The notes beneath the pieces are model-generated. The model saw only the letters and a list, made by a program, of their open reading frames with translations. It did not search any database and was not told where the DNA came from. Position numbers and translations under genes: made by a program. From Escherichia coli (GTDB lineage Bacteria; Pseudomonadota; Gammaproteobacteria; Enterobacterales; Enterobacteriaceae): a DNA stretch of 64,000 bases. Shown here piece after piece: positions 21,422 through 59,405 of the stretch. How positions within the stretch are numbered: the stretch's first letter is position 1; every line of letters starts with the position of its first letter. The DNA is taken from the NCBI RefSeq assembly GCF_001677475.2, contig NZ_CP015229.1. One strand, 5' to 3'.

Positions 21422-21506
<85 letters not shown>

Positions 21507-46149: not shown

Positions 46150-46215
46150 GAGCGGCCGGATAAGGCGTTAACGCCGCATCCGGCCATGATGCCTGATACG
46201 GTCTTATCAGGCCTA
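46150..46215. repeat. REP elements between convergent ypfN and ypfH
   Basis: gcggccggataaggcgttaacgccgcatccggcc and gcctgatacggtcttatcaggcctac match the REP consensus. Confidence 0.7.
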
Positions 46216-50059: not shown

Positions 50060-50773
50060 TCAGTCCAGCTGTACACCCAGGCGGCGGGCGACGGCTTCAT
50101 AGGCTTCGATCAGGCCACCGAGGCTCTGGCGGAAACGGTCTTTGTCCATTTTCTCCAGCGTTTCTTTGTCCCACAGGCGGCTGCCGTCCGGGGAGAACTC
50201 ATCGCCCAGTACCACTTCACCTTTGTACAGGCCAAACTCCAGTTTAAAGTCGACCAAAATCAGACCAGCATCATCGAACAGTTGTTTCAGCACGTCGTTC
50301 GCTTTGTAGGTCAGCTCTTTCATACGCGCCAGGTTCTCTTTGCTCACCCAGCCAAAGGTTTCGCAGTAAGATTCGTTGACCATCGGATCGTGCATGGCGT
50401 CGTTTTTCAGGAACAGATCGAACAGCGGCGGGTTCAGCTCAATACCTTCTTCGATTCCAAGACGTTTCACCAGAGAGCCAGCAGCACGGTTACGCACGAC
50501 ACACTCAACCGGCACCATATCCAGCTTTTTCACCAGACATTCGGTATCGGAGAGCAGACGCTCCATTTGAGTCGGGATACCCGCTTCAGCCAGTTTGCTC
50601 ATAATGAAGTAGTTGAACTTGTTGTTCACCATACCTTTGCGATCAAACTGCTCAATGCGCGCGCCATCCCCTGCTGACGTATCATTGCGGAATTCGAGCA
50701 CCAACAGGTCCGGGTTTTCCGTGCTGTATACGGTTTTCGCTTTACCACGATACAACTCAGCTTGCTTTTGCAT
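50060..50773 (-). CDS. purC: Phosphoribosylaminoimidazole-succinocarboxamide (SAICAR) synthase
   Basis: 237 aa from [22 protein letters not shown]; matches PurC. Confidence 0.95.
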
Positions 50774-50828
50774 CTTTATCACTCCTGGGTGTGAATTAAC
50801 GTTTTAAAATCTTTTGCTGTCTGGTGTG

Positions 50829-50875
50829 CCGGATGTTTTGTCAGATGCGGCAAGAACGCCTTATCCGACCTACGT
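50829..50875. repeat. REP element upstream of purC
   Basis: gccggatgttttgtcagatgcggcaagaacgccttatccgacctacg matches the REP consensus. Confidence 0.6.
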
Positions 50876-50926
50876 CCGACAAACAAATTTCGTGCGAATT
50901 ACCGCTAAAATCGCGTTTTCCTGCCG

Positions 50927-50942
50927 ACGCACACGTTTGCGT
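50927..50942. promoter_or_regulatory. PurR operator (PUR box) in the purC control region
   Basis: acgcacacgtttgcgt; reverse complement ACGCAAACGTGTGCGT fits the PurR consensus ACGCAAACGTTTTCNT. Confidence 0.55.
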
Positions 50943-50952
50943 ATCATATCAG

Positions 50953-50978
50953 AAAAAAGGGCCGGATGACTCCAGCCC
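50953..50978 (-). terminator. Rho-independent terminator downstream of bamC
   Basis: gggccgga-tgac-tccagccc hairpin, followed on the minus strand by a U-run (complement of aaaaaa at 50953-50958). Confidence 0.5.
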
Positions 50979-50985
50979 TATATTT

Positions 50986-52020
50986 TTACTTGCTAAACGC
51001 AGCCTGGAAGACAGCTACCAGCGCGTCGTTCTGACTCTGAGTCAGAGTATGACCTTTCGGATCGATGAACTGTAGGCTGCTGCGGTTATCTAAATCGCCA
51101 ACCTGCAGTTTATAGTCACCGGATGCCAGGCCTGGATCGCTCGCGCCCAGTTCCTGCCAGTCGCTGTCAGACAGCGGCTTATAAGTTACGGCCATGTTGC
51201 CCTGCGAACGGGTGCTGTCGGTCACTTTCATGCCCACTTTTTCCAGCGCCGCTGGCAGACGTCGCCAAACCACATTGAACGGCCCGCGTACGACCAGCAT
51301 TGGTAAACCGGTGTCATCAGCTGCACTTTGTACGTCCATAGTGGTGGAGGCACGATTTTGCGCAGCGTTCGCGGCGTCAGTGGCAGATTTATCCAGACCG
51401 GCGGAAATAACGTTCATCATCTCCGTGCTGTAACGCTGCATGGAAGCCGCGTCTGCAACCGGTTTGCCCGCCTGTTCCAGGTTCAGCAGTTTAACCGTAA
51501 CCGCCTGCTGATAACCCTGCGGCTTAACAGAGATTTGATAACGACCACGATACTGCTCGTCTTCGTCCAGACGGTTCCATTGTACCCAATCGGTGGTCAG
51601 TGTCTGACCAGCATCATCACGTTGGGTGATGGTGTAGCTTTTCGCCTGCAGCACGCTAACCACCTGCGGCCACAGAGTATTGCCACGACCATTTTCCACC
51701 AGCAATGAAGCGGTATCGCCCGTGAACTGGGTACGCGCGCCAGAAACCAGTGCCAGCGGCTGGGCTGGTGGACGAATGTCCAGCGCCTTACCGACAGCAC
51801 CACTACCGTTGGTCACCGGGATTGCATAATCACCGGAGGTCACCGGCAAAATCATTCCAGCCGGGGCATGAAGCTCCGCAAGCGGTGCCGCTTCCAGGTA
51901 GGCTTCATCACCACTGACCTGACGCTTATAGCGTGAGTCAGAACTACAGGCAGCGAGTAATAAAACAAGCGAAACACCCGCAACCTTTGCCAGGCGCGAC
52001 TTTTGAACAGAGTAAGCCAT
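50986..52020 (-). CDS. bamC: Outer membrane protein assembly factor BamC (lipoprotein)
   Basis: 344 aa from [25 protein letters not shown] (lipobox); matches BamC/NlpB. Confidence 0.93.
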
Positions 52021-57965: not shown

Positions 57966-59405
57966 ATGGAAAATCTTGCTCTGACGACGTTATTGCTGCC
58001 TTTTATCGGCGCACTGGTCGTTTCGTTTTCGCCACAACGTCGGGCCGCCGAATGGGGGATTTTGTTCGCCGCGCTGACCACGCTGTGCATGTTGTCGCTG
58101 ATCTCCGCGTTTTATCAGGCCGATAAAGTTGCCGTCACGTTGACGTTGGTCAACGTGGGGGATGTGGCGTTGTTTGGCCTGGTCATTGATCGCGTGAGTA
58201 CGCTGATTCTGTTTGTGGTGGTGTTCCTCGGTTTGCTGGTCACGATCTACTCCACGGGTTATCTGACGGATAAAAATCGCGAACACCCGCATAACGGCAC
58301 GAATCGTTATTACGCATTTTTGCTGGTGTTTATCGGCGCGATGGCGGGACTGGTACTCTCCTCGACGCTGCTCGGTCAGTTGTTGTTTTTTGAAATTACG
58401 GGCGGCTGCTCCTGGGCGTTGATCAGTTATTACCAGAGCGATAAAGCGCAGCGTTCAGCACTAAAAGCGTTGCTTATCACTCATATCGGTTCGTTGGGGT
58501 TGTATCTTGCCGCCGCCACGCTGTTTTTGCAGACCGGAACGTTTGCGCTCAGCGCGATGAGCGAGTTACACGGCGACGCACGCTATCTGGTTTATGGTGG
58601 CATCCTGTTTGCCGCGTGGGGGAAATCGGCCCAGCTACCGATGCAAGCGTGGCTACCGGATGCAATGGAAGCGCCAACACCGATCAGCGCCTATCTCCAC
58701 GCCGCATCGATGGTGAAAGTGGGCGTTTACATTTTTGCCCGTGCCATTATCGACGGCGGCAATATCCCGCATGTGATTGGCGGCGTTGGCATGGTTATGG
58801 CACTGGTCACCATTCTTTATGGCTTCCTGATGTATTTGCCACAGCAGGATATGAAGCGGTTGCTGGCCTGGTCGACCATCACTCAACTTGGCTGGATGTT
58901 CTTCGGCTTGTCGCTCTCCATCTTCGGCTCGCGGCTGGCGCTGGAGGGTAGCATCGCCTACATCGTCAACCACGCATTCGCTAAAAGCCTGTTTTTCCTT
59001 GTAGCAGGTGCACTGAGTTACAGCTGCGGCACGCGCTTGTTGCCGCGTCTGCGTGGCGTATTGCACACCCTGCCATTGCCTGGCGTGGGTTTCTGCGTGG
59101 CAGCGCTGGCAATTACCGGCGTGCCGCCGTTCAACGGCTTCTTCAGTAAATTCCCGCTGTTTGCTGCCGGTTTTGCGTTGTCAGTGGAGTACTGGATCCT
59201 GCTGCCCGCCATGATTCTGCTGATGACTGAATCGGTCGCTAGTTTCGCCTGGTTTATTCGCTGGTTTGGTCGCGTCGTGCCTGGCAAACCTAGCGAGGCC
59301 GTCGCCGATGCCACACCGCTACCAGGGTCAATGCGCCTGGTGTTGATTGTACTGATTGTGATGTCGCTGATTTCCAGCGTAATCGCCGCGACCTGGTTGC
59401 AGTAA
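57966..59405 (+). CDS. hyfD: Hydrogenase 4 membrane subunit (NuoM/antiporter-like)
   Basis: 479 aa matching HyfD. Confidence 0.93.
   Translation: MENLALTTLLLPFIGALVVSFSPQRRAAEWGILFAALTTLCMLSLISAFYQADKVAVTLTLVNVGDVALFGLVIDRVSTLILFVVVFLGLLVTIYSTGYLTDKNREHPHNGTNRYYAFLLVFIGAMAGLVLSSTLLGQLLFFEITGGCSWALISYYQSDKAQRSALKALLITHIGSLGLYLAAATLFLQTGTFALSAMSELHGDARYLVYGGILFAAWGKSAQLPMQAWLPDAMEAPTPISAYLHAASMVKVGVYIFARAIIDGGNIPHVIGGVGMVMALVTILYGFLMYLPQQDMKRLLAWSTITQLGWMFFGLSLSIFGSRLALEGSIAYIVNHAFAKSLFFLVAGALSYSCGTRLLPRLRGVLHTLPLPGVGFCVAALAITGVPPFNGFFSKFPLFAAGFALSVEYWILLPAMILLMTESVASFAWFIRWFGRVVPGKPSEAVADATPLPGSMRLVLIVLIVMSLISSVIAATWLQ

What the first reader, a model, noticed from the sequence alone, without database searches (positions are those of the whole stretch)
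50927..50942. PurR operator in the purC leader, flanked by a REP element
A 16-bp near-palindrome matching the PUR box lies about 155 bp upstream of the purC ATG, with a REP element (50829-50875) between the box and the start codon. Having a REP inside a 5' leader is unusual and could affect leader structure or stability.
Basis: partly seen in the sequence, partly recalled or inferred. Interest (0 to 1): 0.3.

Follow-up and report, generated by a model that had tools for sequence, protein, structure and literature searches.

The report
Known purC PurR operator plus leader REP
This is the well-known binding site where the purine repressor PurR shuts off the E. coli purC gene, and the repeat element just downstream of it is an old, slowly decaying insertion that is transcribed as part of the gene's long leader; it is ordinary and already known.

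Summary
Both observations are real and correctly placed. The 16-mer at 50927-50942 (ACGCAAACGTGTGCGT on the purC strand) is one mismatch from the perfect PUR-box palindrome. It is identical to the K-12 purC PurR site, which is occupied in vivo in ChIP-chip and IPOD-HR experiments. A published K-12 start-site map puts +1 at the seventh base of the box (window 50936). The operator therefore spans -6 to +10, directly after an extended -10 (TGATATGAT), and the 5'UTR is 163 nt.

The new information is evolutionary. 84 of 120 enterobacterial species carry the identical box, usually 49-53 bp from the ATG with no REP. Escherichia has about 103 extra bp: a 60-nt REP-bearing insert between two copies of the ancestral post-box segment. 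Salmonella and Intestinirhabdus share this duplication. The insert is fixed in E. coli (5,425 of 5,426 genomes). Across Escherichia lineages its stem changes break pairs rather than compensate, and it varies far more than the flanking regulatory DNA.

Best reading: a known TSS-overlapping operator plus a passenger REP relic. Low interest.

The parts
50952..50979 (-). bamC intrinsic terminator (9-bp G+C stem, T6 run). It occupies the position where a purC -35 element would be.
   Evidence: Terminator scan; sequence; bamC stop codon at 50986-50988.
50943..50951 (-). purC promoter extended -10: TG (50951-50950), then TATGAT (50948-50943) at -12..-7. There is no recognisable -35.
   Evidence: Position relative to the mapped TSS. 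The consensus scan found no -35/-10 pair. The element is invariant in E. coli and near-invariant across Escherichia. It is retained when IS200C replaces all upstream DNA in strain ETEC4071.
50927..50942 (.). PUR box, the PurR operator of purC, spanning -6..+10 relative to the TSS.
   Evidence: match and ranking; ChIP-chip site with the identical sequence; IPOD-HR signal lost in delta-purR; exact 16-mer in 84 of 120 species.
50936..50936 (-). purC transcription start (+1, an A), transferred from K-12 position 2,595,803 (NC_000913.2).
   Evidence: Kim et al. 2012 PLoS Genet supplementary TSS table: 24 reads, 5'UTR 163 nt, upstream sequence ends ...TGATATGATACGCAAA. K-12 and the window are identical here.
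50774..50936 (-). 163-nt purC 5'UTR.
50892..50926 (-). Copy 1 of the ancestral post-box leader segment (CGGCAGGAAAACGCGATTTTAGCGGTAATTCGCAC, +11..+45). The direct-repeat core DR1 is 50892-50912.
   Evidence: Aligns 30/36 to the single Citrobacter segment; direct repeat with 103-bp spacing; copy-1 orthologues group across genera.
50832..50891 (-). 60-nt insert between the two copies, carrying the REP.
   Evidence: Absent from 71 of the 84 species that have the exact box. 28-35% of its columns vary across Escherichia lineages.
50840..50873 (-). Y-type REP core (GTAGGTCGGATAAGGCGTTCTTGCCGCATCTGAC), +64..+97, with GTAG 5' on the purC sense strand.
   Evidence: 27/32 identical to the crystallised E. 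coli REP quoted in Messing 2012 (counted by hand).
50827..50881 (-). Compound hairpin: the REP stem extended by an outer 7-bp stem (UGUCGGA/UCCGGCA). -26.5 kcal/mol, z = -4.8.
50789..50831 (-). Copy 2 of the post-box segment (CGGCACACCAGACAGCAAAAGATTTTAAAACGTTAATTCACAC, +106..+148). The direct-repeat core DR2 is 50789-50811.
   Evidence: Nearly invariant across Escherichia.
50771..50786 (-). Shine-Dalgarno AGGAG (50782-50786) and purC ATG (50771-50773).
   Evidence: Invariant across Escherichia.

Best explanation
The 16-bp box is the PurR operator of purC. With its corepressor (hypoxanthine or guanine), PurR binds DNA spanning -6 to +10 of an extended -10 promoter (TGATATGAT; the -35 position is taken by the bamC terminator). 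Bound there, it blocks RNA polymerase from binding or opening the promoter. This is simple steric repression at the start site. The REP at +64..+97 is transcribed as part of a 163-nt 5'UTR, but it is a passenger. It belongs to an old insertion of about 103 bp: a 60-nt REP-bearing segment plus a duplicated copy of the roughly 35-nt post-box leader segment. The insertion arose in the lineage leading to Escherichia (and probably Salmonella), is fixed in E. coli, and is decaying without selection for its hairpin. Shown: box identity, in vivo PurR occupancy, TSS position, REP identity, and the phylogenetic distribution and substitution pattern. Inferred: the occlusion mechanism, from geometry and established PurR biology; and the lack of REP function, from evolutionary pattern only.
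For: Operator: 1 mismatch to the palindrome, 0.01 expected per window; top PurR-matrix hit on both strands; identical to the K-12 site, which is listed as a ChIP-chip PurR site with adenine-enhanced occupancy and shown by IPOD-HR to be lost in delta-purR; the exact 16-mer is conserved in 84 of 120 species. Geometry: TSS at the seventh base of the box, 5'UTR 163 nt; a canonical TGnTATGAT at -15..-7. A natural IS200C insertion replaces everything upstream of the extended -10 and leaves the rest intact. REP as passenger: absent in 71 of 84 species, which have the same box 49-53 bp from the ATG. Variable columns across 6 Escherichia lineages are 25/77 in the insert, against 1/57 in the ATG-proximal leader (Fisher p = 3e-6) and 1/25 in the promoter plus box (p = 0.003). 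Within the compound hairpin, 13 cells are broken and 1 pair has a compensatory change; the covariation term is +1.34. Hairpin stability falls from -26 kcal/mol in E. coli to between -15 and -22 in sister species. One E. coli strain has a 12-bp deletion in the stem. The homologous Salmonella and Intestinirhabdus inserts fold no better than shuffles. No Rfam riboswitch or leader family matches. No 3' end for purC appears in the held part of the Adams 2021 supplement.
Against: The insert is fixed in 5,425 of 5,426 E. coli genomes, mostly at >=95% identity, and the hairpin is very stable in E. coli proper (z about -4.7), so a lineage-specific role is not excluded. DR1 and the 3' end of the insert (CACACCAGACAGCAAAA) are more conserved than the REP (DR1 p = 0.05), which hints at some constraint inside the added DNA. 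REPs can attenuate transcription and block decay in other contexts. The TSS rests on one genome-wide dataset from K-12; the 1990 primer-extension paper could not be read. Three other TSS or transcript-map supplements held no purC entry in the text available.
Confidence: 0.72

Rival explanations
1. The REP hairpin is a functional transcription attenuator in the purC leader. It terminates or pauses a fraction of transcripts (by Rho or hairpin-assisted), which sets a ceiling on purC expression in Escherichia.
For: REP325 attenuates readthrough into the downstream gene, and REP-containing tandem gene pairs show upstream-biased expression (bioRxiv 2026.03.23.713779). The hairpin is strong in E. coli and fixed in the species.
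Against: No U-run follows the hairpin; the sequence after it is AAAACAUCC / CACACCAG. No purC 5'UTR 3' end appears in the held Adams 2021 tables. Stem changes across Escherichia are disruptive, not compensatory. Most relatives manage with a 60-nt leader.
Confidence: 0.1
2. The REP hairpin modulates purC mRNA stability or translation. It could act as a barrier or entry site for RNases, or reshape the leader so that the SD region is more or less accessible.
For: REPs stabilise upstream RNA against 3'-5' decay in other contexts. The minimum-free-energy fold of the whole leader includes long-range pairs between +6..+11 and +116..+122, which are invariant in Escherichia.
Against: The whole-leader fold is no better than shuffles (z = -0.5). 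A 3'-5' exonuclease barrier in a 5'UTR would not protect the coding region. The long-range pairs never vary, so they give no evidence either way. The hairpin erodes in sister species.
Confidence: 0.08
3. The main purC promoter lies downstream of the box, or of the REP, so that the REP or the box is not transcribed.
For: There is only one TSS dataset. Enterobacter-type loci appear to carry a -10 (GGCATAAT) downstream of the same box.
Against: The TSS table gives a single purC start at the box, with 24 reads. No sigma-70-like site lies between the box and the ATG in the window. An extended -10 sits at exactly the right distance.
Confidence: 0.04
4. The REP acts at the DNA level, for example as a RAYT (TnpA-REP) substrate, a protein-binding site or a supercoiling buffer next to the promoter.
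For: GTAG and the bulged hairpin, the features needed for RAYT binding, are present in the window and in K-12.
Against: It is a single REP, not a BIME pair. GTAG is mutated to ACAG in one Escherichia lineage, and the bulge and stem are mutated in others. There is no copy-number or position polymorphism in 5,425 genomes.
Confidence: 0.03

Closest known systems
PurR (LacI/GalR family) operators of the E. coli pur regulon (purF, purL, purMN, purEK, purHD, purT)
   Same: 16-bp imperfect palindrome with a central CG, overlapping the promoter of a purine biosynthesis gene. PurR occupies it in vivo and occupancy rises with exogenous purine.
   Different: Nothing essential: this is the catalogued purC member. 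The details are a centre at about +2.5, directly abutting an extended -10 in a promoter with no -35, and a conserved non-consensus G at box position 11.
Downstream PurR operators of purB and purR (roadblock type; from my own knowledge of He/Zalkin-era work, not re-read here)
   Same: Part of the operator is transcribed.
   Different: Those sites lie far downstream of +1 and act on elongating polymerase. Here the site covers -6..+10 and should act at initiation.
Y-type REP (repetitive extragenic palindrome), substrate of the RAYT TnpA-REP
   Same: 5' GTAG, a G+C-rich imperfect hairpin with an A-A/C-G bulge, and 29/34 identity to the consensus.
   Different: It is a solitary, partly degenerate copy rather than part of a BIME. 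It lies in a 5'UTR downstream of a TSS rather than in a 3'UTR or intercistronic spacer. It sits between two copies of a roughly 35-nt host segment.
REP325 / naRNA4 (Rfam RF02564)
   Same: It shares the REP hairpin unit (28.2-bit hit).
   Different: The hit is below the gathering score of 59.5. It is one hairpin, not the two-hairpin Z2-Y unit or the 12-hairpin array.

Membership tests
PurR operator (PUR box) | 16-bp imperfect palindrome matching ACGNAAACGTTTGCNT with a central CG | tested here: met
   1 mismatch to the perfect palindrome, 0.01 expected per window; best matrix score in the window on both strands.
PurR operator (PUR box) | PurR occupies the site in vivo, dependent on purR | tested here: met
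   From the literature, for the identical K-12 sequence (identity shown): ChIP-chip log2 ratio 2.08 with adenine and 1.52 without; IPOD-HR signal lost in delta-purR. Not measured in the strain of the window.
PurR operator (PUR box) | Placed so as to interfere with the promoter of a purine or nucleotide metabolism gene | tested here: met
   The box spans -6..+10 of the mapped purC TSS; the downstream gene is purC.
PurR operator (PUR box) | Corepressor-dependent repression of the downstream gene | not testable with these tools
   Only indirect evidence: occupancy rises with adenine. The purC-lacZ data of He et al. 1990 could not be read.
REP (Y type) | Conserved 5' GTAG tetranucleotide at the foot of the hairpin | tested here: met
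   GTAG at 50873-50870 on the minus strand. The requirement is described in Messing 2012.
REP (Y type) | Imperfect G+C-rich hairpin with an internal mismatch bulge | tested here: met
   The fold shows a 7-bp plus 4-bp stem with a 2x2 internal loop; -26.5 kcal/mol for the compound hairpin, z = -4.8.
REP (Y type) | Sequence similarity to the family consensus, with multiple copies in the genome | tested here: met
   29/34 to the consensus, against 0 hits in shuffles at <=7 mismatches. Two further copies lie in the window, at 21423 and 46151.
BIME (bacterial interspersed mosaic element) | Two or more REPs in alternating orientation | tested here: not met
   Only one REP lies within the spacer. The neighbouring CATCCGGCA is a 9-nt fragment.
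naRNA4 (RF02564) | Score at or above the Rfam gathering threshold | tested here: not met
   28.2 bits against 59.5.
Known cis-regulatory leader RNAs (riboswitch or attenuator families) | Match to any Rfam family in the 5'UTR | tested here: not met
   No hit other than naRNA4 at E <= 1.

The most novel reading that the evidence does not exclude
The purC leader preserves the footprint of how a REP entered a transcribed region. The REP-bearing 60 nt sit between two diverged copies of the roughly 35-nt host segment that follows the operator, and this architecture is shared by Escherichia, Salmonella and Intestinirhabdus. If the duplication was made by the insertion event itself, it would be a rare clue to the still-unknown mechanism of REP insertion, because IS200/IS605-type transposition makes no target duplication. 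In addition, or alternatively, the conserved parts of the added DNA (DR1 and CACACCAGACAGCAAAA) may have been co-opted for post-transcriptional control of purC in Escherichia.
Probability: 0.12. Interest if true: 0.4.

Novelty: already known. Interest (0 to 1): 0.13.

Why it matters
It matters little beyond annotation. The site is a textbook PurR operator, so confirming it adds no new biology. The case does show how a long enterobacterial 5'UTR can arise: 60% of the purC leader is a lineage-specific REP insertion plus a duplicated host segment, and most relatives lack it. Anyone interpreting the 163-nt leader as regulatory should therefore first test whether the extra 103 nt do anything. The locus would also suit a clean experiment on what a solitary REP does inside a 5'UTR, because natural REP-less versions of the same promoter, operator and SD exist in Citrobacter.

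Tried and rejected
- **1990 primary papers.** I could not read Tiedeman et al. or He et al. by PubMed or PMC id. Thomason 2015 was also not held.
- **A second TSS dataset.** Ettwiller 2016, Mendoza-Vargas 2009 and Romero 2014 had no purC entry in the supplement text held, and Conway 2014 had no supplements held. This is absence of data, not contradiction.
- **K-12 REP annotation.** The NC_000913.3 copy available shows only CDS features over 30 kb, so it says nothing about whether this REP is annotated.
- **Literature searches.** One search was swamped by 'dapagliflozin' hits. 'purc' matched 'purchased' in Messing 2012.
- **Consensus promoter scan.** It found nothing, because the promoter has no -35. 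I rejected this as evidence against a promoter, since an extended -10 sits at the mapped TSS.
- **Coverage figure.** The >=80%-coverage result could not exclude loss of the REP, so I re-queried with the insert alone.
- **Conserved leader structure.** The alignment fold gave a positive covariation term, and the leader as a whole folds no better than shuffles.
- **Small ORFs.** The plus-strand ORFs across the spacer (50814-50969, 50824-51075) are antisense, overlap the terminator and REP, and have no support, so I rejected them.

Full report
**What the window is.** The region matches E. coli: 100% identity to NZ_LR778147.1, and a match in 5,425 of 5,426 complete genomes. On the minus strand it carries dapA, bamC, purC, ypfJ and tmcA. 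bamC ends at 50986 and purC starts at the ATG at 50773-50771, not at the upstream GTG that the ORF list gives.

**Checking the observation.**
- On the purC strand, 50942 to 50927 reads ACGCAAACGTGTGCGT. This is one mismatch from the perfect PUR palindrome and the only such site in the window; 0.01 are expected at <=1 mismatch.
- I built a matrix from 27 other PurR ChIP-chip sites, leaving out purC. The box ranks first on both strands (18.5 and 17.1 bits; next best 13.7). The matrix score alone is within reach of shuffled windows (mean maximum 14.6, highest 22.3), so the case rests on the combination of evidence rather than on this score.
- 153 nt separate the box from the ATG.
- The REP is real. 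The core at 50840-50873 has 5 mismatches to the 34-nt Y-type consensus, and nothing appears in shuffles even at 7 mismatches. It has the 5' GTAG and the bulged hairpin that define E. coli REPs (Messing 2012; fold). It also gives a sub-threshold Rfam hit to the REP-derived naRNA4 family.
- An outer 7-bp stem extends the hairpin to 50827-50881 (-26.5 kcal/mol, z = -4.8).

**What it is.**
- K-12 has the identical box, and its spacer is 98% identical to the window.
- Cho et al. 2011 list exactly this 16-mer as the PurR site of purC. Its ChIP-chip occupancy is among the highest in their table and rises with adenine.
- Freddolino et al. 2021 use the purC promoter as their showcase for a PurR footprint that disappears in delta-purR or in minimal medium.
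- The supplementary TSS table of Kim et al. 2012 gives one purC start, at 2,595,803 (minus strand, NC_000913.2). It has 24 reads, a 163-nt 5'UTR, and upstream sequence ending ...TGATATGATACGCAAA.
- Transferred to the window, +1 is 50936, the seventh base of the box. The box therefore covers -6..+10. TATGAT sits at -12..-7 with a TG at -15/-14, forming an extended -10.
- The position where a -35 would be is occupied by the bamC terminator hairpin. This explains why the consensus promoter scan found nothing.
- One E. coli strain, ETEC4071, has an IS200C inserted exactly between the terminator T-run and CTGATATGAT. All upstream DNA is replaced and the -10, box and leader are untouched. This fits a promoter that needs little beyond its extended -10.

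**The REP is in the leader.** With +1 at 50936, the REP core is at +64..+97 of the transcript.

**Where the REP came from.**
- I scanned species-representative genomes with a pattern anchored on the purC N-terminus, which returned 120 loci.
- 84 loci carry the exact 16-mer. In 71 of these it lies 49-53 bp from the ATG with no REP; this group includes Citrobacter, Klebsiella, Enterobacter, Kosakonia, Leclercia and Buttiauxella.
- Only the Escherichia loci (E. albertii and three other non-K-12 lineages) have the 152-153 bp spacing and the REP.
- Citrobacter's single post-box segment, CGGCAGAAAAACGCAATATTTATCGTTAATTCACAC, aligns to both halves of the E. coli leader: copy 1 at +11..+45 (50926-50892) and copy 2 at +106..+148 (50831-50789).
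- The repeat finder independently reports the direct-repeat core, with 103-bp spacing. The 60 nt between the copies carry the REP.
- Salmonella enterica subsp. arizonae and Intestinirhabdus alba have the same two-copy architecture around different, degenerate G+C-rich palindromes.
- Orthologous copies resemble each other across genera (0.64-0.78 identity) more than the two copies within one genome resemble each other (about 0.61). Copy 1 shares the derived TTCGC in all three genera.
- This favours one old event, but the sequences are short. I cannot decide between later loss in Citrobacter and a different branching order.
- Enterobacter sp. JUb54 has an unrelated 100-nt palindromic insert at the same place.

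**Does the REP do anything?**
- Within E. coli the insert is fixed. 5,425 of 5,426 genomes cover at least 80% of a 116-nt insert-only query, and 5,352 do so at >=95% identity.
- Across six Escherichia lineages, variable columns are unevenly spread.

| Leader segment | Variable columns | Fisher test vs insert |
|---|---|---|
| Insert, including REP | 25/77 | n/a |
| REP core alone | 12/34 | n/a |
| ATG-proximal leader | 1/57 | p = 3e-6 |
| Extended -10 plus box | 1/25 | p = 0.003 |

- Within the hairpin, 13 cells are broken pairs and only one pair shows a compensatory change. The covariation term is unfavourable.
- Hairpin stability falls from about -26 kcal/mol in E. coli to between -15 and -22 in the other lineages.
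- One E. coli strain has lost 12 bp of the 3' arm.
- The Salmonella and Intestinirhabdus remnants fold no better than shuffles.
- The leader as a whole is not unusually structured (z = -0.5). It matches no Rfam leader family, and no purC 5'UTR 3' end is listed in the held Adams 2021 tables.
- I therefore read the REP as a transcribed passenger.
- Three points keep the functional rivals alive at a combined 0.2 or so. The hairpin is strong in E. coli proper. DR1 and the last 17 nt of the insert are conserved. And a recent preprint shows that REPs can both attenuate readthrough and block decay.

**Comparison with what is known.** The operator is the catalogued purC member of the PurR regulon. It differs from the purB and purR downstream operators in that it overlaps +1. 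The REP meets the tested features that define a Y-type REP, but it is not a BIME and not naRNA4. I could not verify whether earlier work noted the REP in the leader, because the 1990 papers were unavailable and the K-12 record here shows only CDS features.

**Verdict.** The finding is already known, so interest is low (0.13). The only mildly new item is the evolutionary anatomy of the leader: an old REP insertion between two copies of a host segment.

Noticed in passing
L123 (NZ_CP122673.1, E. coli ETEC4071) 395-1120; equivalent to window 50952/50951: An IS200C copy (tnpA) is inserted exactly between the bamC terminator T-run and the purC extended -10 (CTGATATGAT). It displaces all native upstream DNA and leaves the -10, PUR box, REP and leader intact.
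   Followed up: partly
L124 (NZ_CP058355.1, E. coli AMSCJX03); equivalent to window about 50833-50844: A 12-bp deletion removes part of the REP 3' arm. It lies between the two CATCCG(A/G)C repeats and looks like slippage.
   Followed up: partly
Loci L005, L035, L059, L096 and other Enterobacter-type loci, just around the PUR box: The identical 16-bp box is kept, but the promoter around it seems to have moved. Escherichia and Citrobacter have TGATATGAT immediately upstream of the box. Enterobacter-type loci lack that and instead have GGCATAAT immediately downstream, which suggests a -10 on the other side of the operator and a much shorter leader. No TSS data were checked.
   Followed up: no
L066 (Enterobacter sp. 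JUb54), purC leader: An unrelated insert of about 100 nt, with ATACAC...GTGTAT ends, lies at the same position after the PUR box. It folds into a long hairpin (-30 kcal/mol, z = -2.7), so it looks like a different small palindromic or MITE-like element at the same spot.
   Followed up: partly
window 50932 (box position 11): The one non-consensus base of the box (G in ACGCAAACGTgTGCGT, at +5 of the transcript) is conserved in 84 of 120 species. It seems to be selected rather than a tolerated defect; the reason is unknown.
   Followed up: no
window 50913-50926 (+11..+24): The 14 nt right after the box are the most variable part of the leader across Escherichia (6 of 14 columns). A small predicted stem there (columns 13-14 with 23-24) keeps pairing through one double change and one single change.
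   Followed up: no
window 21423-21456 (+) and 46151-46184 (-): Two further Y-type REP copies, with 3 and 4 mismatches to the consensus. By K-12 coordinates, one is in the eutG-eutH spacer and one is between the convergent genes ypfN and ypfH.
   Followed up: no
window 58533-58548 (+): The second-best PurR-matrix hit in the window is ACCGGAACGTTTGCGC at 13.7 bits. This is within the range of shuffled sequence and is probably chance.
   Followed up: no
window 50818-50835 (+): A terminator-like hairpin with a T-run is called on the strand antisense to the purC leader. It is formed by the outer-stem sequence next to the REP, and no gene reads into it from that side.
   Followed up: no
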